Shown here one piece after another: positions 3,526-17,019 of a stretch of DNA of 17,252 nucleotides (position 1 is its first letter; the number at the start of each line of letters is the position of its first letter). The translations under genes were made by a program, and so were the position numbers. The notes under the pieces are model-generated. The model worked only from the letters and a program-made list of their open reading frames with translations. It was not told the DNA's origin and made no database searches. Location of the stretch: the UHGV virus genome UHGV-0812067; one strand, 5' to 3'. This stretch comes from a virus.

Positions 3526-3950
3526 TGGAACTGTGGCTGACGGTGAACGGTAAACGCACCTGCGCCAGCGCACAACTGGATCCGCTGACCCGCGCCGTGG
3601 TGATTTCCCTGTTTACCTGGCGGCGGGCGGAGCCTGATGACAACGCCGAAGTCCCGATGGGATGGTGGGGGGATACCTGGCCTGCGGTACAGAATGACCG
3701 TTACGGCTCCCGACTGTGGCTGCTTCAGCGCAGCAAACTGACCAATCAGCTGGTGCAGACGGTAAGGGGGTATATCCGCGAATGCCTGCAATGGATGATT
3801 GATGACGGCGTGGTGTCCCGTATTGATCTGGATATCCGCCGCACCGGGATTAATGAACTGGGTAACAGTATCACTCTCTGGCGTCGTGACGGACCGGTAA
3901 TGATTTCTTTTGATGATCTGTGGAGTGCGATAACGCATGGCGGACAGTGA
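3525..3950 (+). CDS. Mu gp46 / gpW-like baseplate wedge protein
   Basis: ORF track starts at 3522 (ATGATG); the second ATG at 3525 has better spacing from GGAGG (3516-3520). About 140 aa, consistent with the GP46/gpW family by position and size. Confidence 0.7.
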   Translation: MELWLTVNGKRTCASAQLDPLTRAVVISLFTWRRAEPDDNAEVPMGWWGDTWPAVQNDRYGSRLWLLQRSKLTNQLVQTVRGYIRECLQWMIDDGVVSRIDLDIRRTGINELGNSITLWRRDGPVMISFDDLWSAITHGGQ

Positions 3951-5573: not shown

Positions 5574-6536
5574 ATGCATCGTATAGACACGAAAACCGCG
5601 CAGAAGGATAAGTTCGGCGCGGGTAAGAACGGTTTTACCCGTGGTAACCCCCAGACCGGCACACCTGCCACCGATCTGGATGATGACTACTTTGACATGT
5701 TGCAGGAAGAACTTTGTAGCGTGGTGGAGGCCTCCGGTGCCAGCCTGGAGAAAGGGCGGCATGACCAGCTGCTTACCGCACTTCGTGCGCTGCTGTTAAG
5801 CCGCAAGAATCCGTTTGGCGATATCAAATCGGACGGCACGGTGGAAACGGCTCTCGAAAACCTTGGTTTGGGAGATGCCAACGGATATGTGGGCCGAAAG
5901 GTTGCGGAAAAATGGATAACGACATCTGGGACATATACGCCTACACCGGGAACAAAAAAAATCAGGGTAACGATAATTGGCGGAGGCGGCGGCGGGGGCA
6001 GTGGGCAAACAAACTCTGCTGGATACGTATCTGCCGGGTCTGGTGGAGGTGCCGGTGGTGTGGCTCGTAAAACAATTGACGTTACCAGTGTTTCATCAGT
6101 GTCCGTAACCATCGGTTCAGGCGGTAATCCAGGTGTCTTCTCTTCAAATCAGCCTGGTGATGGTGGTACCACAAGTTTTGGCTCCTACATGACAGCTGGC
6201 GGGGGTGGCCGAGGAAATAACTGTGGCTCGGTAGCATTCGGTGTTACTCAGTTAATTGCGAACGGTGGCGGCGGGGTTGGTTCAGGAGGTGATATCAACA
6301 CCATCGGCGGCTCTGGCGGCCCGGCGATAATTCTGGGACAGGGGTACACCAGCGGCGGCGGTGGCAACTCAATAGTAGCTGGAGGTGGACAGCCTATTGC
6401 AACAACGTCATCAATGAGTGGAATTGATGGCTCATATGGTTCTGGTGGGTCAGGCGCTTACATTCTGGCCAGCGGTAGTGAAAAAAATGGCGGACGTGGT
6501 GGTGATGGCGTTTGTATCGTTGAGGAGTATGCATAA
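5574..6536 (+). CDS. tail fibre protein, expressed form in this orientation (constant N-terminus + glycine-rich variable C-terminus)
   Basis: ATG at 5574 with GGAG (5563-5566). N-terminus [40 protein letters not shown]... is the conserved phage tail-fibre N-terminal domain. From about residue 98 the protein is extremely Gly/Ser-rich. The inversion crossover site lies inside the gene at 5851-5876. Confidence 0.85.
5851..5876. repeat. invertase crossover site, left (gix/cix/pix/hix-like, 12-2-12 layout)
   Basis: ctctcgaaaacc tt ggtttgggagat: two half-sites resembling the invertase half-site consensus (..TC..AAACC) around a central TT. The 11 bp ttggtttggga (5863-5873) is the exact reverse complement of 7677-7687. 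Confidence 0.7.
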
Positions 6537-6943
6537 TGAATAACATTTATGCTGTTGTTGAAAATGGCGTGGTGATCAACATCGTCGTCTGGGATGGGAA
6601 ATCGGAATGGCAACCGGTAACTGGGGAGGCTGTTTCTTGTTCTGCTCAGGTTGGTATCGGCTGGTTGTATGATGGAAGTAATTTCACCCAGCCACCAACA
6701 CCCGAGCAGACTCCAGAAGAATTAGCAGCGGCAAACATGGCTAAAGCTGCATCTGAGTATGAACGTGCCAGCGTAGTCATTGTAGCGCTAAATGAGCAGA
6801 TCGAAGACGAGGACTACGCAGGGACTACGGAAGAGGCCGTGAAATCAGAATTGGCCGCATGGACTGACTATCGTAAACAGCTTCGCGCTTACATTAAGGC
6901 CGGGGATGGCAGCCAGACACTACCATCCTTTGTAATGATTTAA
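6536..6943 (+). CDS. tail fibre assembly/chaperone-like protein for the current fibre form
   Basis: ATG overlaps the fibre stop (TAATG at 6534-6538) with GAGGAG upstream (6522-6527). C-terminus ...AWTDYRKQLRAYIKA resembles the Tfa C-terminal W-x-x-YR motif. The N-terminal part is not classic Tfa. Confidence 0.55.
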   Translation: MNNIYAVVENGVVINIVVWDGKSEWQPVTGEAVSCSAQVGIGWLYDGSNFTQPPTPEQTPEELAAANMAKAASEYERASVVIVALNEQIEDEDYAGTTEEAVKSELAAWTDYRKQLRAYIKAGDGSQTLPSFVMI

Positions 6944-7323
6944 ACTGGTCGTGTAGGCCACTCTATATCGGGAGCCGTGCTGGTATCAGTTCGCATCACG
7001 GCAACCCGATAATCTTCCCACGAGGTTAATCTAGCAGCTTCTTCATCAGTCGCTATTCCTGCGGTTACTGCATATTGAAGAGGTGATATTGCAAAAGTTG
7101 CTGCCGCCAGCAGCTCTGCTTTTTTCTGATTTGCAATCGCTACTTGCTGATCATGAGTCAGTGGCGCAGGGTCGCTCAGTTCGGGAAAACCACTTTCGTT
7201 TGCAATAATTACCTTTCCTCCCGCCTGCCCAATCACCAATTCTGACCAGTAGTCGTCGGTAATCTCCACCTGGCTATCACTCATCCGCCCAACCGTAAAT
7301 CCAATCTCTGTGGAATAAAACAT
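6940..7323 (-). CDS. tail fibre assembly protein (Tfa), alternative-orientation copy
   Basis: C-terminus ...ATDEEAARLTSWEDYRVAVMRTDTSTAPDIEWPTRPV matches the conserved Tfa C-terminal motif. Its stop codon overlaps the convergent + strand stop within TTTAAA (6940-6943). Confidence 0.8.
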   Translation of the reverse strand: MFYSTEIGFTVGRMSDSQVEITDDYWSELVIGQAGGKVIIANESGFPELSDPAPLTHDQQVAIANQKKAELLAAATFAISPLQYAVTAGIATDEEAARLTSWEDYRVAVMRTDTSTAPDIEWPTRPV

Positions 7324-7685
7324 TACGCACTCCCCATAGCCATATATTTAAAAGAAAAAGATCCGTTCAGATTTGCCCCTGCGGCATCCTTTCCGTAAAT
7401 TGTCACAACCGAACCTGATTCAGGAATGGCGGCATAACTAACAACGCCTGAGCCAATATCAGTCGGGATAAAAGTAAAACCAGTGCTGGGGTAAGCCAAT
7501 GGAAGAGTAAAGCTCAGTACGCCGTTAACAAAATTTCCAGATCCACTGCCCTCCATTATTCTACGGTTTCCTGCAATCACTATTGAAGTAAATACGTTTG
7601 AAGCGCCAGCGTATGTGAAGTTTGACATGTCTGGAATTTGACCAGTTCCTGTACCCACATCTTTTTTGGCTGCTGTTCCCAAACC
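7323..7685 (-). CDS. silent alternative tail-fibre C-terminal segment (Sv'-like), lacks its own N-terminus in this orientation
   Basis: Minus-strand frame is open from the stop at 7692-7694 through the crossover site to TAA at 7323-7325. It reads ...KVGLGTAAKKDVGTGTGQ..., with GLG encoded by the same ggtttggga as NLGLGD in the + fibre, in the same frame. The TTG 'start' in the ORF track is probably not a real start. Confidence 0.65.
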   Translation of the reverse strand, partial: GLGTAAKKDVGTGTGQIPDMSNFTYAGASNVFTSIVIAGNRRIMEGSGSGNFVNGVLSFTLPLAYPSTGFTFIPTDIGSGVVSYAAIPESGSVVTIYGKDAAGANLNGSFSFKYMAMGSA

Positions 7686-7699
7686 AACCTTTCAAATAT
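7674..7699. repeat. invertase crossover site, right
   Basis: tgttcccaaacc aa cctttcaaatat: the left half-site matches the half-site consensus well, the right half is degenerate. It carries the 11-bp inverted repeat tcccaaaccaa (7677-7687). Confidence 0.65.
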
Positions 7700-7726
7700 T
7701 TTTCTGAATCAGGTGATATTTCGCCT

Positions 7727-7753
7727 CTTCTCCTGTTTTTACAACAGGAGAAG
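7727..7753 (+). promoter_or_regulatory. hairpin sequestering the invertase Shine-Dalgarno
   Basis: cttctcctgt (7727-7736) and acaggagaag (7744-7753) form a perfect 10-bp inverted repeat with loop ttttaca. The right arm contains AGGAG (7746-7750), the RBS for the ATG at 7759. Confidence 0.4.
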
Positions 7754-7758
7754 CACTC

Positions 7759-8322
7759 ATGATTTACGGGTATGTTCGTGTATCAACAAATCATCAGGAT
7801 ACAGAGTTGCAACGTCTTGCACTTGAGTCAGCTGGCTGTGAGCGAATTTATGAAGAATATGCCAGTGGCAGAACAGCTAATCGCCCTGTGTTAAAGGAAT
7901 TAATTACGGTGATGAAAAGTGGAGATGAGTTGATTGTCTGGAAGTTAGATCGGATAGGGAGAAATGTGCTGCATGCGCTATTGATGTTTCAAAATCTGCA
8001 CGAAAAAGGTGTTAATTTTCGGAGTATTACAGATGGCGTAGACCTGAAAACAGCAAGTGGTCGCTATAATTTCCGTAATATTCTTTCTGCTGCGCAGTAT
8101 GAATCTGATTTGAATAGCGAGCGAACTTTAGCTGGTTTGGCTATTGCCAGATCCAAAGGCCGGATTGGTGGGCGTAGACCGAAGTTTAGCGACGAGCAGT
8201 GGCAACAGATGGGAGCGCTCATAGCGGCAGGGAAATCACGGCGTTATGTTGCACGTATCTATAACGTTGGGCTATCAACCCTATATAAACGATTTCCTGT
8301 TACTGGCATTCAAACGAAATAA
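7759..8322 (+). CDS. serine DNA invertase (Gin/Cin/Pin/Hin family resolvase-type recombinase)
   Basis: MIYGYVRVSTNHQDTELQ... contains the catalytic Ser motif (YVRVS), VWKLDRIGR, GRIGGRRPK and a C-terminal HTH ...GLSTLYKRFP. It is 187 aa and sits adjacent to the invertible segment. Confidence 0.9.
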   Translation: MIYGYVRVSTNHQDTELQRLALESAGCERIYEEYASGRTANRPVLKELITVMKSGDELIVWKLDRIGRNVLHALLMFQNLHEKGVNFRSITDGVDLKTASGRYNFRNILSAAQYESDLNSERTLAGLAIARSKGRIGGRRPKFSDEQWQQMGALIAAGKSRRYVARIYNVGLSTLYKRFPVTGIQTK

Positions 8323-8361
8323 TTTAAAAGCAATTTAAAGAGTTATTTGTCTAATGTTGGA

Positions 8362-8399
8362 AGCCGCAGCCACGTCGTATGCAAGAACGTGCTGCGGCT
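8362..8399. terminator. hairpin between convergent invertase and dinI-like genes (possible bidirectional terminator)
   Basis: agccgcagccacg (8362-8374) pairs with cgtgctgcggct (8388-8399), about 12 bp with one bulge. There is no clear U-tract on either side. Confidence 0.35.
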
Positions 8400-8465
8400 G
8401 GCTGGCGAACTTTCGATAGTGCGAGTATTGAATGATTTCCAGCCGTTACCGATTTTACGTGTTAA

Positions 8466-8714
8466 TTAGTGAACAAACCACTCGTCAGCAGATTCCCAGG
8501 TATCTTTCAGAGTCTCCTGAACAAAAGTTTTTGCAGAATCCTTATCTGCGGTGCGTGTAACAGAAAGGCCATCGTTGCTGGTGGCTTTTACGATCACCTC
8601 TACATCGTCATAACGTTTACTGATGCGTCGGGTTAATTCTTCCTTTAACGCATCCACAGCACCGGTTGGCATTTTAGTCATTTTTTCTTTGGCTATGCAG
8701 ATTTCAATACGCAT
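8466..8714 (-). CDS. dinI: DinI-family (DNA damage-inducible protein I-like) protein
   Basis: 82 aa, [11 protein letters not shown]...AVDALKEEL...[11 protein letters not shown], closely resembling the DinI pattern (MRIEVTIAK...ETWESADDWF). SD-like GAGGGA precedes the start; LexA-box-like palindromes lie upstream. Confidence 0.85.
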
Positions 8715-8727
8715 AAAAGTCCCTCTA

Positions 8728-8747
8728 TACTGTGTTTGTATACAGTA
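8728..8747. promoter_or_regulatory. LexA (SOS) box 1
   Basis: TACTGTGTTTGTATACAGTA, a perfect CTGT-N8-ACAG palindrome matching the consensus TACTG(TA)5CAGTA, located 14 bp upstream of the dinI-like start codon. Confidence 0.75.
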
Positions 8748-8755
8748 TTATTTTT

Positions 8756-8775
8756 AACTGTATGGATAAACAGTG
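8756..8775. promoter_or_regulatory. LexA (SOS) box 2
   Basis: AACTGTATGGATAAACAGTG, a second CTGT-N8-ACAG element 8 bp from box 1 and directly abutting the integrase stop codon (8776-8778). Confidence 0.6.
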
Positions 8776-9873
8776 TCAAGGGGTCTTATTTCTGCTCCTT
8801 TGGAGCTCTTCAAAACGATTATGTAAAGATTTCGGATACAGTTCGGTATATACCTGCCATAGCACGTTTAATGAACGATGCCCTGTAACCTGGGCTACTT
8901 CCTCAATACTAAAACCAGCCTCAAATAAGCGACTTGCCCCTTCTCTACGCAAATCATGGTATCGCAGATCCTTAATACCTAATTTGCTTCTTACCCTCTG
9001 AAATCCCGCAGTAACAGAAGTGCTGTTATATGGAAAAATGAATTCCGATTTTTTGGGCTGTCGTTGGACGATATCCCAGGCTTCCCCAAGCAAGGCTACT
9101 TTCATGTGGTTGCCTTCCTTTTTGCGTGGATCTTTCCTGTCTCTTACGAGTATAGATTTTTGTTCCTGGTCGAGATCTTCCCATCGTAACCGGCATACTT
9201 CTCCGATTCGCATACAGGACCACACAGAAAATTTGAGGATATCAACGAACGGAATTTTTGAGCATTTATGAGTAGATCGTTGTTGAAGGCCTTCAATGAG
9301 CATGTCCAGTTCATCAGATGCTGGTCTACGATTACGACGGTTTGATTTACCAATCAAACCAAGTTTAAGTAGATATGGACGAGCACTTTTCGCCGGGTTT
9401 GATGTGTAATTAATTCCGTATACAGGTTTGGCCGCATCCAGAACACTGCCAAGATAACTAACATCGTGGCTGACTGTTGCTGGACCTGCGCCAGCGTTGT
9501 TTCTTAGCCTGCAATGTTCAATTACGTCATTTTCTGTCAGTTCAGATAGTTTGATCGCGGAGATGTCACTATCCATAAGCAGTTCCAGCACATATCTTTT
9601 AGTACGGCCTGCTTTACCTCCGGCATTTGGGTCATTTAAATATTTGTGTAGTAAGTCACGGACTGTAAGTCCGTCAACTGCATTTGATGATGGAATGCCA
9701 TATAGATCTAATTCCATCACTTTCTGTGTGCCCCATGTTTTGGCATGAGCATGTTTAGGGAATGTTTTGCTTTCCCTGTAAGTGATAACACCTTTTTCTT
9801 TGATAATCACATTACAGCGATAGCGTGGTGTGCCATCGGATTTTAGTCGTTTCTCTATGTTATAGTACGCCAT
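8776..9873 (-). CDS. tyrosine site-specific recombinase (phage integrase)
   Basis: 365 aa. The C-terminal catalytic region has the R...HxxR...Y arrangement (...LRYHDLRREGASRL...VTGHRSLNVLWQVYTELYP). GAGG lies 7 nt upstream of the ATG at 9873. Confidence 0.9.
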   Translation of the reverse strand: MAYYNIEKRLKSDGTPRYRCNVIIKEKGVITYRESKTFPKHAHAKTWGTQKVMELDLYGIPSSNAVDGLTVRDLLHKYLNDPNAGGKAGRTKRYVLELLMDSDISAIKLSELTENDVIEHCRLRNNAGAGPATVSHDVSYLGSVLDAAKPVYGINYTSNPAKSARPYLLKLGLIGKSNRRNRRPASDELDMLIEGLQQRSTHKCSKIPFVDILKFSVWSCMRIGEVCRLRWEDLDQEQKSILVRDRKDPRKKEGNHMKVALLGEAWDIVQRQPKKSEFIFPYNSTSVTAGFQRVRSKLGIKDLRYHDLRREGASRLFEAGFSIEEVAQVTGHRSLNVLWQVYTELYPKSLHNRFEELQRSRNKTP

Positions 9874-9892
9874 TACACGACCTCGTTATTTC

Positions 9893-9929
9893 GGGTTCCC
9901 ATAAAACGTGGGAACCTGTGCGGGAACCT
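9893..9929. repeat. cluster of GGGAACC(T) motifs upstream of the integrase gene (candidate arm-type or regulatory binding sites)
   Basis: gggttccc (9893-9900, inverted), gggaacct (9910-9917) and gggaacct (9922-9929), lying 20-56 bp upstream of the integrase start. Confidence 0.45.
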
Positions 9930-10105
9930 AATGCGAGAAAAATAGCCTGAAATGTTCAAAAATGCACGATAATCATGAAACACAAAAAATTAATCAAACC
10001 AGCGTGATGCCTGAAAAAACTGGTGTTTACTGGAATTCTCGGTTTAGCATTGCTCCTATGCTCGATAGGATGTACCGTTTTTGAAAAACAAGTAGTTATA
10101 CACTT

Positions 10106-11585: not shown

Positions 11586-11858
11586 TCAACTATTTTTCTG
11601 TTTGTTCGTTCTGACCCTTTCCCATTCAATTCTGCCTTCTTCACGCCGCTGGTCTATATACTCAGCAAGATCCTGAATGTTGATACAGCGCTTCGCTTTC
11701 TGTGATGTTCCTACACGGTAAGTCGGGATCGGCAACTGACAGGCATTTGCTTTCGCTTCTGCTGTGTTAGGGCTCATACCGAAATACTTTTGGCATACCG
11801 CTGACAGCTCGATGTTAGGCGTGTTGAACTCAGCCATAAGTAAAAACAAAGTATTCAT
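11586..11858 (-). CDS. PrtN-family (pyocin activator-like) small DNA-binding protein; possible regulator or recombination directionality factor
   Basis: 90 aa, MNTLFLLMAEFNTPNIELSAVCQKYFGMSPNTAEAKANACQLPIPTYRVGTSQKA..., the characteristic N-terminus of PrtN-like proteins common in enterobacterial prophages. GGAG lies 7 nt upstream of the ATG. Confidence 0.7.
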   Translation of the reverse strand: MNTLFLLMAEFNTPNIELSAVCQKYFGMSPNTAEAKANACQLPIPTYRVGTSQKAKRCINIQDLAEYIDQRREEGRIEWERVRTNKQKNS

Positions 11859-14310: not shown

Positions 14311-15228
14311 TTATCGCTTGGCTTCGCCGCCGAGAGAGGTTGTTAATCCGTTAATGAGAGAGATAAGCTCGCCGGTCATCAGAACAAAGTCAGCGTCGAA
14401 CCGCTGAGCCGCATCCTCACGGTCGATATCGTCGTTTTGTTCTGTAATCTCATTAGAGAACTTAAGGCGTTTGATGCTGCCGTCATCGCAAAGAACGAAC
14501 TGAATGCGCTGTTGCCAGTCGATAGACAGCTTTGTAACTACTTTGCCAGCTTCCAGATGCACATGAATTTCGTCACTGACCAGAGTCTGTTTTTTAAAGC
14601 GTCCAATACCGCCATCTTCAAGAATAGCTTTCAGTTCGGCTTCATCACCCAGGCCAAAGCCAGCAGGCGCACTACCGGAACGAACCCATTCGGTCATAGT
14701 TAGTTCGATCGGCGTTTCCATAGTCAGCGGTACCACCGGGAGAGAACCGAGAGTTTTACGAAGCAGGGCCAGTGAGTCTTCGGCACGTTTAGCGCTGGCT
14801 GCATCAACCATGATCAGACCGTCGGTGACGTTGATCCACAAACTAACAGTCGAGTTTTTGGAGAACGCCCGAGGAAGCAGGGAGTGCAACACTTCATCAC
14901 GCAGCGAATCTTTCTCAGTTTTTTTGAGGCGACGCCCCTGATCGGATTCCAGACGCGACACACGCTTGCGCAGTTCTTCAGCAATGACAGGAGATGGCAG
15001 TATTTTTTCTTCCCGGCGAATAACCAACAACACTTGATTATTGACAGTGTGATGCAAGCGATCTGACAGCTGACCAAGTGGTGATACCCAACCGGTTTTT
15101 GCCATATCCTGGCTACCGCATGGAGTGAAGCGAAATAGTTCAAGCTGCTGTTCCAGCTCTTCCTGGTTGATGGTGAAATCGCGACTAATGCGATACACCA
15201 ACATATTTTTGAAAAACGGATTGTTCAT
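14311..15228 (-). CDS. rdgC: RdgC-family recombination-associated protein, phage-encoded homologue
   Basis: 305 aa, [18 protein letters not shown]...[19 protein letters not shown]...KILPSPVI...[22 protein letters not shown]...LGSLPVVPL...RLKF..., collinear with E. coli RdgC along its whole length. Confidence 0.9.
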
Positions 15229-16365: not shown

Positions 16366-17019
16366 TCAAAAATCCATTATTACTTGTTTGACAAGACCAA
16401 CTATTCTGCAGTTCTCACCGCATTCAATAGTTTTATAGTTAGGATTTAGTGGGACGAGATACCTGTTCGGCCAGTCCTCAACAAATTTTTTGAGTGTCGC
16501 TTCTTGCCCACCATTGATATGGGCAACAACGATTTTTCCGTTAATACACTCTGTATCAATAATATCTGGCTCTACGATAACGATAGAACCTTCTGGTATC
16601 GATGGTGAGCCGAGGGGATTGGTCATTGAATCACCACGGACCCGTAGTGCAAATGCCATTTCTGATACAAGGGCGGTAGTATAAACCCACTCTTCAGCAT
16701 CTTCTTTCCTGACACCAGGCTCCGTCATTGTCCATGAACCCGCCTGAACCCACGAGATGAGGGGGACTTTTTTAACTGCGAATATTTCAGGTTTTAGATT
16801 TATCTTTGGTTCAGGCGAGCCTTTTCCGCTAACAAGCCACAGAGGATCGCATTTAAGTGCGTTGGCTAGGGCTTGAAGGTTGGCTCCATTTGGTTGGTAG
16901 TCGTCCTTTTCCCATCCAGTAACCGTGACACGGTTCACACCAGTCAAATCAGCCAGTGCTTGTTGTGTCAGGTTCAGTTCTTTTCGCCTTTGGCGAATAC
17001 GATCACTCATGTTCATCAT
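16366..17019 (-). CDS. CI-like phage repressor (N-terminal HTH + C-terminal LexA/S24-type autocleavage domain)
   Basis: 217 aa. N-terminal HTH (RIRQRRKELNLTQQALADLTGVNRVTVTGWEKD); C-terminal S24 peptidase features (...ALRVRGDSMTNP... with a downstream Lys). No strong SD, as is common for repressor genes. Confidence 0.9.
   Translation of the reverse strand: MMNMSDRIRQRRKELNLTQQALADLTGVNRVTVTGWEKDDYQPNGANLQALANALKCDPLWLVSGKGSPEPKINLKPEIFAVKKVPLISWVQAGSWTMTEPGVRKEDAEEWVYTTALVSEMAFALRVRGDSMTNPLGSPSIPEGSIVIVEPDIIDTECINGKIVVAHINGGQEATLKKFVEDWPNRYLVPLNPNYKTIECGENCRIVGLVKQVIMDF

What the first reader, a model, noticed from the sequence alone, without database searches (positions are those of the whole stretch)
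8715..8778. Two tandem LexA-box-like palindromes between the dinI-like gene and the integrase stop codon
TACTGTGTTTGTATACAGTA (8728-8747) is a textbook SOS box. A second CTGT-N8-ACAG element (8756-8775) follows 8 bp later and ends immediately before the integrase stop. This would put the dinI-like gene under direct host SOS control from within the prophage. DinI modulates RecA activity, and the RecA co-protease also drives CI-type repressor cleavage, so a phage-borne SOS-induced dinI could tune prophage induction. The window also carries an rdgC homologue (14311-15228), another RecA modulator.
Basis: partly seen in the sequence, partly recalled or inferred. Interest (0 to 1): 0.55.

Follow-up and report, generated by a model that had tools for sequence, protein, structure and literature searches.

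The report
SOS-controlled promoter of prophage dinI gene
The two palindromes are real, conserved binding sites for the host DNA-damage repressor LexA, placed on the promoter of a phage-carried dinI-like gene; the arrangement is already annotated in well-known E. coli phages and proven in Salmonella relatives, so it is ordinary.

Summary
Two CTGT-N8-ACAG elements lie at 8728-8747 and 8756-8775, between the integrase stop codon (8776-8778) and an intact 82-aa DinI-family gene (8466-8714, minus strand). They are the only two such elements in the window.

On the gene's strand the layout is a consensus -35 (TTGACA, overlapping the integrase stop), the distal box filling the spacer, an A/T-rich -10, the proximal box over the expected start site, a ribosome-binding site, then ATG. 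Both boxes score like working E. coli LexA sites.

The same layout recurs in 50 of 54 distinct upstream regions of related genes. It holds down to 56-58% protein identity in Erwinia and Mixta, while the DNA further upstream is unrelated.

The unit is a self-contained phage cargo cassette. It is not new. The VT1-Sakai record already annotates a "putative SOS box" and promoter on the homologous cassette, mEp460 annotates the promoter, and Gifsy dinI homologues are experimentally LexA-controlled. Only the second (distal) operator goes unannotated in those two records.

The one published test, in Gifsy prophages, was negative.

A side observation may be more interesting. The dinI 3' untranslated region is a conserved structured element found in 99% of complete E. 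coli genomes.

The parts
8774..8779 (-). -35 hexamer TTGACA of the dinI-like promoter. It overlaps the integrase stop codon TGA (8778-8776).
   Evidence: Consensus scan. Nearly invariant in relatives. The equivalent hexamer is annotated as part of a promoter in mEp460 and VT1-Sakai.
8756..8775 (-). Distal LexA box CACTGTTTATCCATACAGTT. It fills the 17/18-nt spacer between -35 and -10.
   Evidence: Exact CTGT-N8-ACAG. Reconstructed heterology index 5.0. Its CTG/CAG half-sites are invariant in footprint alignment A2. Present in 50 of 54 distinct relatives.
8750..8756 (-). A/T-rich -10 region TAAAAAT: TAAAAA with a 17-nt spacer, or AAAAAT with an 18-nt spacer.
   Evidence: Scan reports AAAAAT with an 18-nt spacer, 10 of 12 matches. 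VT1-Sakai annotates the homologous TAAAAA with a 17-nt spacer.
8728..8747 (-). Proximal LexA box TACTGTATACAAACACAGTA. It begins 3 nt after the TAAAAA hexamer, covers the expected transcription start, and ends 13 nt before ATG.
   Evidence: Exact CTGT-N8-ACAG. Reconstructed heterology index 3.3, the best in the window. Conserved in relatives. The homologous site is annotated 'LexA protein, putative SOS box' in AP000400.1.
8721..8725 (-). Shine-Dalgarno GAGGG, 6 nt before ATG.
   Evidence: Read from the sequence. A purine-rich run is conserved at this place in relatives.
8466..8714 (-). Intact dinI-like gene (82 aa).
   Evidence: Translation. Pfam DinI E = 1.1e-19. PHROG 'RecA filament binding protein DinI' E = 6e-31. 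46% identity to K-12 DinI, including the C-terminal WESADxWF motif. PDB 1GHH E = 3.7e-13.
8362..8444 (-). Conserved structured 3' untranslated element. A stem (GGCUGG/CCAGCC) encloses an invariant core, CAUUCAAUACUCGCACUAUCGAA (8434-8412). A 14-bp terminator-like hairpin follows (8399-8362).
   Evidence: Fold -35.5 kcal/mol, z = -2.6. Hairpin covariation in 7 of 9 pairs. More conserved than the coding sequence in distant relatives. Present in 5,388 of 5,426 E. coli genomes.
8776..9873 (-). Tyrosine integrase (context). Its 3' end abuts the dinI promoter, and it is specific for dusA.
   Evidence: Pfam Phage_integrase. In lysogen S115 the order is dusA, int, dinI, invertase.
16366..17019 (-). 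CI-type repressor (context for the induction hypothesis): an HTH domain plus an S24 self-cleaving peptidase domain.
   Evidence: Pfam HTH_3 and Peptidase_S24. The translation shows candidate motifs VQAG|SW, GDSM and LKK.
14311..15228 (-).
   Evidence: Pfam RdgC E = 8e-116. No LexA-like site nearby.

Best explanation
The 61-bp interval is a LexA-repressed sigma-70 promoter with two operators. It drives a self-contained cargo cassette (a 'moron') made of the dinI-like gene and its structured 3' end.

In an undamaged lysogen, one LexA dimer on the distal box occupies the -35/-10 spacer. A second dimer on the proximal box covers the start site. Together they keep RNA polymerase off.

DNA damage activates RecA, LexA cleaves itself, both operators clear, and the DinI-like protein is made. 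By homology it binds the groove of RecA filaments and modulates RecA co-protease activity.

The sequence anatomy, the conservation and the family assignments are shown here. LexA binding, damage inducibility and RecA binding of this particular copy are inferred from homologues.
For: - Sites exist and are unlikely by chance: two exact CTGT-N8-ACAG elements, against 0.23 expected in the whole window.
- Scores: with a matrix rebuilt from 27 E. coli sites, the heterology index is 3.3 (proximal) and 5.0 (distal). The 27 known sites span 1.2-9.7, and the next-best position in the window scores 11.4.
- Promoter geometry: TTGACA, then the distal box in the spacer, then an A/T-rich -10, then the proximal box, then GAGGG and ATG.
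- Conservation: 50 of 54 distinct upstream regions of relatives carry two boxes about 13 and 41 nt from ATG; TTGACA near -65 recurs in most. The strict two-box pattern matches 183 of the 307 loci held at that point.
- Footprint: in a 17-sequence alignment reaching 56-58% protein identity (Erwinia, Mixta, Pantoea, Trabulsiella), the conserved columns are the -35 and the CTG/CAG half-sites. Box centres and upstream DNA vary.
- Cassette behaviour: many Stx, cdtI, 2H10 and CP-1639 phage hits match only window ~8350-8779, stopping at the -35. Upstream contexts differ between relatives: an integrase 3' end, att-proximal repeats, or terminators.
- Prior annotation and experiments: VT1-Sakai annotates a promoter and a 'LexA protein, putative SOS box' on the homologous cassette, and mEp460 annotates the promoter. 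Gifsy dinI homologues were induced 4.6- to 23-fold by nalidixic acid. In Gifsy-2, the lexA3 allele abolishes mitomycin C-dependent induction, and replacing the LexA-box promoter region removes the mitomycin C response. [quoted passage not shown]
- Protein identity: Pfam, PHROG, PDB 1GHH and 46% identity to K-12 DinI.
Against: - No binding or expression data exist for this copy.
- The heterology index uses a matrix rebuilt from operator sequences I recalled from the literature. Only the dinI site was checked against sequence, so the absolute values are approximate.
- The -10 is a weak match, and the start site is predicted, not mapped.
- Centre-to-centre spacing of the boxes varies from 24 to 28 bp among relatives. 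Cooperative binding with fixed geometry is therefore unlikely, and the contribution of the distal box is uncertain.
- A few relatives (L089, L091) have only the proximal box.
Confidence: 0.88

Rival explanations
1. Induction tuner. The SOS-induced DinI-like protein competes with the phage's self-cleaving CI-type repressor for the RecA-filament groove. This would raise or delay the threshold for induction of this prophage. The double operator would make its expression late and damage-dose dependent.
For: - The repressor at 16366-17019 has HTH and Peptidase_S24 domains and plausible cleavage and catalytic motifs.
- No LexA-like site lies at the immunity region, so induction must go through RecA-stimulated repressor cleavage.
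Against: - Non-polar deletions of the Gifsy-1 and Gifsy-3 dinI homologues had no significant effect on induction level or rate. Gifsy repressors are not cleaved, so that test is not fully transferable.
- The same cassette sits in phages with many different immunity regions and in defective prophages. That fits a host-directed cargo gene as well as a phage-specific regulator.
- There are no direct data.
Confidence: 0.2
2. LexA-controlled antirepressor module. As in the Gifsy dinI-gfoA-irsA operon or phage 186 Tum, the boxes would control a small antirepressor that triggers induction, with dinI as a passenger.
For: The combination of a LexA box and a dinI homologue is the hallmark of those modules.
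Against: - No ORF of 20 aa or more lies on the dinI strand in the 143 nt before the convergent invertase gene.
- The DinI-like protein is 82 aa, not a Tum-like fusion.
- The phage has a cleavable S24 repressor, so it does not need an antirepressor.
Confidence: 0.03
3. The palindromes act at the RNA or DNA level for the integrase gene, as a transcription terminator or as integrase-binding sites, and are not LexA operators.
For: - In an int read-through transcript the two boxes can pair with each other. The fold is -19 kcal/mol, z = -3.2, it is followed by ACUUUU, and its outer stem covers the dinI ribosome-binding site.
- There is no other terminator between int and dinI.
Against: - Two palindromes with the same half-sites will always pair, so the fold is an expected by-product.
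- The same two boxes occur where no integrase lies upstream, for example after att-proximal repeats in VT1-Sakai and after true terminators in Erwinia and L286.
- The outer-stem bases are not conserved.
- The attachment site lies on the other side of int, next to the dusA fragment.
Confidence: 0.04
4. Chance palindromes with no regulatory role.
For: 3 of 200 shuffles of the window gave two CTGT-N8-ACAG matches somewhere.
Against: The two lie 28 bp apart on a consensus promoter of a DinI-family gene. Their half-sites are conserved in dozens of divergent relatives whose flanks are unrelated.
Confidence: 0.01

Closest known systems
dinI cassette of Stx1 phage VT1-Sakai (AP000400.1, gene H0001), and of phage mEp460
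   Same: - Homologous DinI-like protein: 95% identity in VT1-Sakai, 100% in mEp460.
- Same order of TTGACA, box, -10, box, ribosome-binding site and ATG.
- Same position at the int/att end of the prophage, convergent with the tail-fibre region.
- The records already annotate the promoter (both) and a 'LexA protein, putative SOS box' (VT1-Sakai).
   Different: - VT1-Sakai annotates only the proximal box. Its distal element is CTGG-N8-ACAG.
- There the cassette follows att-proximal repeats next to yehV. Here it follows the stop codon of a dusA-specific integrase.
- VT1-Sakai has a YkgJ-like gene downstream; the window has none.
Gifsy-1/-2/-3 dinI-antirepressor-irsA operons of Salmonella (Lemire et al. 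2011, PMC3121763; Merida-Floriano et al. 2021, PMC8072944)
   Same: A prophage-borne dinI homologue sits directly behind a LexA box. Damage induction and LexA dependence are shown experimentally there.
   Different: - Gifsy dinI is the first gene of an operon that encodes the antirepressor, and Gifsy repressors are not cleaved. Here dinI is monocistronic and the repressor is an S24 self-cleaving type.
- Gifsy promoters are reported with one box; here there are two.
- Gifsy units are preceded by a terminator; here the promoter overlaps the int stop codon.
Chromosomal dinI of E. coli K-12
   Same: DinI family, 46% identity with the conserved C-terminal helix motif. A LexA box lies just upstream of the ribosome-binding site.
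   Different: - One box (ACCTGTATAAATAACCAGTA) and no box in the promoter spacer.
- A short 3' end with a plain terminator and no similarity to the phage 3' element.
Multi-operator SOS promoters (lexA, recN; Salmonella chromosomal dinI)
   Same: More than one LexA site on a single promoter. Salmonella lexA has two boxes, recN three, and Salmonella dinI two, at 19 and 42 nt from ATG (Table 1 of PMC8072944).
   Different: Those are host genes. Spacing here is 28 bp centre to centre and varies from 24 to 28 bp in relatives. Fixed-phase cooperativity is therefore not indicated.
DinR, the sRNA processed from the Klebsiella dinI 3' end (PMC10907235)
   Same: A LexA-controlled dinI transcript whose 3' end carries a structured, potentially functional RNA.
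   Different: DinR's pairing region is reported as specific to Klebsiella chromosomal dinI. The element here is phage-type, has no Rfam family, and is unrelated to the K-12 dinI 3' end. No expression or Hfq data exist for it.

Membership tests
E. coli-type LexA operator (SOS box) | A 20-bp palindrome resembling TACTG(TA)5CAGTA, with a CTG-N10-CAG core | tested here: met
   Both elements are exact CTGT-N8-ACAG. They match the consensus at 17 of 20 (proximal) and 15 of 20 (distal) positions.
E. coli-type LexA operator (SOS box) | Heterology index within the range of operators known to bind LexA | tested here: met
   3.3 and 5.0, against 1.2-9.7 for the 27 reference sites; the rest of the window scores 11.4 or higher. 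The matrix was rebuilt from recalled sites, so values are approximate. The published table lists classical SOS loci only below 14.
E. coli-type LexA operator (SOS box) | Overlaps promoter elements or the start site of the regulated gene | tested here: met
   The distal box fills the -35/-10 spacer, and the proximal box starts 3 nt after the -10. The promoter is annotated in homologues.
E. coli-type LexA operator (SOS box) | Half-sites conserved in orthologous promoters while the flanks drift | tested here: met
   Alignment A2 and the survey of 54 distinct upstream regions.
E. coli-type LexA operator (SOS box) | LexA binding, and lexA-dependent damage induction | not testable with these tools
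   Only precedents exist: Gifsy dinI homologues and phiKO2.
DinI family (PF06183) | Profile match above the curated cut-off, as a single-domain protein of about 80 aa | tested here: met
   70.9 bits against a cut-off of 24.2; 82 aa. PHROG 189. PDB 1GHH E = 3.7e-13.
DinI family (PF06183) | Conserved C-terminal acidic helix (TWESADxWF) | tested here: met
   It aligns with K-12 DinI residues 68-79.
DinI family (PF06183) | Binds RecA filaments and modulates co-protease activity | not testable with these tools
   Inferred from homology only.
LexA-controlled antirepressor module (Gifsy gfoA/gftA; 186 Tum) | An antirepressor ORF co-transcribed with, or fused to, the DinI-like part | tested here: not met
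   No ORF of 20 aa or more on the strand downstream. The protein is 82 aa, with no N-terminal extension.
LexA-controlled antirepressor module (Gifsy gfoA/gftA; 186 Tum) | A cognate repressor that is not RecA-cleavable | tested here: not met
   The window's repressor carries a Peptidase_S24 domain with candidate AG, Ser and Lys motifs.
Phage moron (autonomous cargo cassette) | Own promoter and own 3' hairpin or terminator | tested here: met
   Promoter. A 14-bp hairpin with covariation. Most relatives have a U-run after it, but in the window the U-run is degenerate.
Phage moron (autonomous cargo cassette) | The same cassette occurs in different genomic contexts, with homology breaking at its edges | tested here: met
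   Phage hits match only ~8350-8779. At least three kinds of upstream context are seen.
3'-UTR-derived sRNA (DinR-like) | A stable processed RNA from the dinI 3' end that binds Hfq and pairs with targets | not testable with these tools
   Only structure and conservation were shown. No Rfam family matches.

The most novel reading that the evidence does not exclude
The LexA-controlled unit has two outputs that matter to the phage.

1. A DinI-like protein, expressed late because two operators must clear. It would compete with the phage's self-cleaving repressor for the RecA-filament groove and so set the damage threshold for induction.
2. A conserved, structured 3' end (8362-8444) that works as an SOS-induced, phage-borne regulatory RNA. 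Copies of this element sit in 99% of complete E. coli genomes and are unannotated in the records inspected.
Probability: 0.12. Interest if true: 0.6.

Novelty: already known. Interest (0 to 1): 0.18.

Why it matters
As found, it matters little. It confirms that this phage, like Stx phages, mEp460, phiKO2 and the Gifsy prophages, wires a RecA-modulating cargo gene directly into the host SOS regulon.

It is of practical use for annotation. The two operators, the promoter and the cassette edges can be transferred to thousands of E. coli prophage copies. The dinI-like coding sequence is in 2,008 of 5,426 complete genomes.

Two points remain open. First, it is unknown whether a phage DinI changes induction of prophages that have cleavable repressors. 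Second, it is unknown what the much more widespread 3' element does.

Tried and rejected
- Heterology-index matrix. I looked for the original Lewis matrix or a table of operator sequences in PMC8072944, PMC12527982 (including its supplement) and PMC11228462 and found none. I rebuilt a matrix from recalled sites instead.
- Repeat locus scan. A viral-contig scan with a protein alignment returned the same near-identical loci as the single-protein scan. Diversity came from the genome scan and from scans with more distant homologues.
- Known RNA families. Rfam gave no match at gathering threshold. Below threshold there were only weak partial CssrB matches to the hairpin on the opposite strand.
- Gifsy promoters. 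I tried to retrieve Gifsy phage records to count boxes myself, but they were not among the phage hits, so I rely on the published tables.
- Coding reading of the 3' element. Rejected because there is no start codon on the gene strand. The invariant core shows no third-position wobble, while coding third positions are only 39-53% identical in the same comparisons.
- Other readings. The antirepressor-operon, int-terminator and chance readings were rejected (see rivals).
- Literature. Searches for tests of E. coli prophage dinI function found only annotations and a statistical association with quinolone-resistance emergence.

Full report
**Observation**

The interval between the integrase stop codon and the dinI-like start codon was read on both strands.
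- The first element is TACTGTGTTTGTATACAGTA at 8728-8747. On the gene's minus strand it reads TACTGTATACAAACACAGTA.
- The second is AACTGTATGGATAAACAGTG at 8756-8775 (minus strand CACTGTTTATCCATACAGTT). It lies 8 bp away and ends one base before the integrase stop codon (8776-8778).
- CTGT-N8-ACAG occurs only at these two places in 17,252 bp, against an expected 0.23.
- The dinI-like frame is intact at 82 aa. It is a DinI-family protein by Pfam (E = 1.1e-19), by PHROG 189 'RecA filament binding protein DinI', by PDB 1GHH (E = 3.7e-13), and by 46% identity to K-12 DinI including the C-terminal WESADxWF helix.

**Anatomy on the gene's strand**

The elements run in this order.
- TTGACA at 8779-8774. 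Its TGA is the integrase stop codon.
- The distal box, which fills the 17/18-nt spacer.
- An A/T-rich -10, TAAAAAT, at 8756-8750.
- The proximal box, starting 3 nt after the TAAAAA hexamer.
- GAGGG at 8725-8721, then ATG at 8714.

One LexA dimer would therefore sit between the two promoter hexamers. The other would sit on the expected start site.

**Strength of the sites**

I could not find the original heterology-index matrix in the paper library. I rebuilt a count matrix from 27 E. coli operators recalled from the literature. Only the dinI operator was verified against sequence.
- On that scale the proximal box scores 3.3 and the distal box 5.0.
- The 27 reference sites span 1.2-9.7.
- The next-best position in the window scores 11.4, and everything else scores 13 or more.
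- The absolute numbers are approximate. The ranking is robust.
- No LexA-like site lies near the immunity region or near rdgC.

**Source and context**

The window is 99.9% identical to Escherichia phage SKA5 and 98% identical to mEp460 over 8300-9000. Related sequence is present in thousands of E. coli genomes. In lysogens the phage sits in dusA, in the order dusA, int, dinI, invertase, tail fibres. The cassette therefore lies about 1.2 kb from the prophage end. The phage has a repressor with HTH and Peptidase_S24 domains and candidate cleavage and catalytic motifs.

**Comparative evidence**

Related loci were fetched from viral and genome collections.
- Of 54 distinct 100-nt upstream regions, 50 carry two boxes with index below 10, ending about 13 and 41 nt from ATG. 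TTGACA lies near -65 in most.
- The strict pattern TTGACA-CTG-N10-CAG-N6-14-CTG-N10-CAG matches 183 of the 307 loci held at that point. Many of the rest simply end at the gene start.
- In a 17-sequence alignment reaching 56-58% protein identity (Erwinia, Mixta, Pantoea, Trabulsiella), the conserved columns are the -35 hexamer and the CTG/CAG half-sites. The box centres, the inter-box gap and everything upstream vary.
- Centre-to-centre spacing ranges from 24 to 28 bp, which argues against fixed-phase cooperativity.
- Two relatives, L089 and L091, keep only the proximal box.

**A mobile cassette**

- Many phage hits (Stx1a and Stx2c phages, cdtI, 2H10, CP-1639) match only window ~8350-8779. That span runs from the 3' hairpin to the -35.
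- The upstream neighbour differs between relatives. It is this integrase, or att-proximal repeats of ATGCCCCA-like motifs next to the yehV attachment site in VT1-Sakai, or a rho-independent terminator.
- No ORF of 20 aa or more follows dinI on its strand before the convergent invertase gene. The unit is therefore monocistronic here.

**What is already known**

- The VT1-Sakai record (AP000400.1) annotates 'putative promoter of H0001 and H0002' and 'LexA protein, putative SOS box' on the homologous cassette. It marks only the proximal box.
- mEp460 annotates the promoter.
- In Salmonella, the Gifsy-1, -2 and -3 dinI homologues are LexA-box genes induced 23-, 14- and 4.6-fold by nalidixic acid. 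In Gifsy-2, the lexA3 allele abolishes mitomycin C-dependent induction, and replacing the LexA-box promoter region removes the mitomycin C response.
- K-12 chromosomal dinI has a single box.
- The kind of feature, and this very cassette, are therefore already described. The unannotated second operator is the only increment.

Competition between DinI and a cleavable repressor is structurally plausible. [quoted passage not shown] Nothing tests the idea, however. Deletions of the Gifsy dinI homologues had no effect on induction, although Gifsy repressors are not cleaved. The cassette's presence in phages with many immunity types and in defective prophages fits a host-directed cargo role equally well. 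I put this reading at about 0.2.

**Rivals rejected**

- An antirepressor operon. There is no ORF, no fusion, and the repressor is cleavable.
- A terminator or integrase-binding role. The box-to-box RNA pairing of -19 kcal/mol is an expected by-product of two like palindromes. The boxes also persist where no integrase lies upstream.
- Chance. This is refuted by the conservation.

**Side observation: the 3' element**

- Conservation. The roughly 110 nt after the dinI stop codon are more conserved than the gene. In relatives with 69-76% coding identity (third positions 39-53%), the first 105 nt after the stop are 73-83% identical.
- Structure. The fold has a stem enclosing an invariant 23-nt core, then a 14-bp hairpin. 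Seven of the hairpin's nine aligned pairs show compensatory changes, and no shuffle reaches the observed covariation. Most relatives have a U-run after the hairpin. In the window the U-run is degenerate.
- Distribution. The element occurs at 16,556 places in 5,388 of 5,426 complete E. coli genomes. No feature is annotated under the match in any of the 30 records listed. The dinI-like coding sequence occurs at 3,918 places in 2,008 genomes.
- K-12 copy. In a K-12-like laboratory strain the element sits at the Qin prophage end, between truncated ydfJ and ynfT. The dinI frame looks deleted there, leaving ATGCGT joined to AAAATC. MG1655 has no annotation between ydfJ and ynfT.
- Comparisons. It has no Rfam family and is unrelated to the K-12 dinI 3' end.
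- Readings. It could be a terminator that doubles as a recombination boundary between phage modules. Mosaic exchange would also explain why it is more conserved than the gene. Alternatively it could be a regulatory RNA in the manner of Klebsiella DinR. I could not decide between these.

**Verdict**

SOS control is well supported, and induction tuning is untested. The feature is already known and of low interest. The 3' element is recorded as a lead.

Noticed in passing
window 8362-8444 (minus strand); also L307 2501-2600 and loci L087, L088, L194, L197, L200, L260-L262: The dinI 3' untranslated region is a conserved structured element: a stem around the invariant core CAUUCAAUACUCGCACUAUCGAA, then a covarying 14-bp hairpin. 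It is more conserved than the coding sequence in distant relatives. It is present in 5,388 of 5,426 complete E. coli genomes (16,556 places), and no feature is annotated under the match in the 30 records listed. That is far more copies than the dinI-like gene (3,918 places). It could be a terminator and recombination boundary, or an SOS-induced regulatory RNA.
   Followed up: partly
L307 2440-2600 (Qin prophage end in K-12-like strain JB41); the MG1655 equivalent lies in L309: The Qin copy keeps the upstream ATGCCCCA-type context and the 3' element, but has lost the promoter, both LexA boxes and the dinI frame. The junction ATGCGT|AAAATC looks like a deletion between the second codon and the sequence just after the stop. 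Nothing is annotated between ydfJ and ynfT in MG1655.
   Followed up: partly
window 9880-10100 (ORF 9962-10084, plus strand): A short fragment annotated 'tRNA-dihydrouridine' in phage SKA5 lies just upstream of int. In lysogen S115 the integrase abuts an intact dusA. This is therefore a dusA-integrating phage that carries a replacement 5' end of dusA. The window is in the excised (phage) configuration across the attachment site.
   Followed up: partly
L308 2380-2425 (VT1-Sakai); also L045, L083, L086, L089, L190, L264 upstream of the -35: Repeated (A/T)TGCCCCA motifs lie between the yehV attachment site and the dinI promoter in phages with a different integrase. They are probably integrase arm-type binding sites. 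They show that the cassette abuts the attachment region in those phages.
   Followed up: no
window 8715-8800 (minus strand, as RNA): In a transcript reading through from int, the two boxes can pair with each other, and an outer CCCUU/GAGGG stem would cover the dinI ribosome-binding site (-19 kcal/mol, z = -3.2). This is probably a by-product of two like palindromes, because the outer-stem bases are not conserved.
   Followed up: partly
window 8359-8396 (plus strand); L307 2565-2702 (minus strand): There are weak sub-threshold Rfam matches to CssrB, a Shigella sRNA: 23.5 bits (E = 0.013) in the window and 19.5 bits (E = 0.24) in L307, against a gathering score of 76. They lie on the strand opposite to dinI. 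The window match covers only the 3' hairpin of the model, which suggests the hairpin may act as a two-way terminator.
   Followed up: no
window 5574-8322: This is a tail-fibre region with opposed short ORFs (6536-6943 plus strand; 6940-7323 and 7323-7682 minus strand) next to a Pin/Gin-type serine invertase (7759-8322). It looks like an invertible host-range segment, as in e14, Mu and P1. The crossover sites were not searched for.
   Followed up: no
window 11671-11690: TCCTGAATGTTGATACAGCG is the only other position with a weak LexA-like score (index 11.4). It lies inside overlapping ORFs and was not examined further.
   Followed up: no
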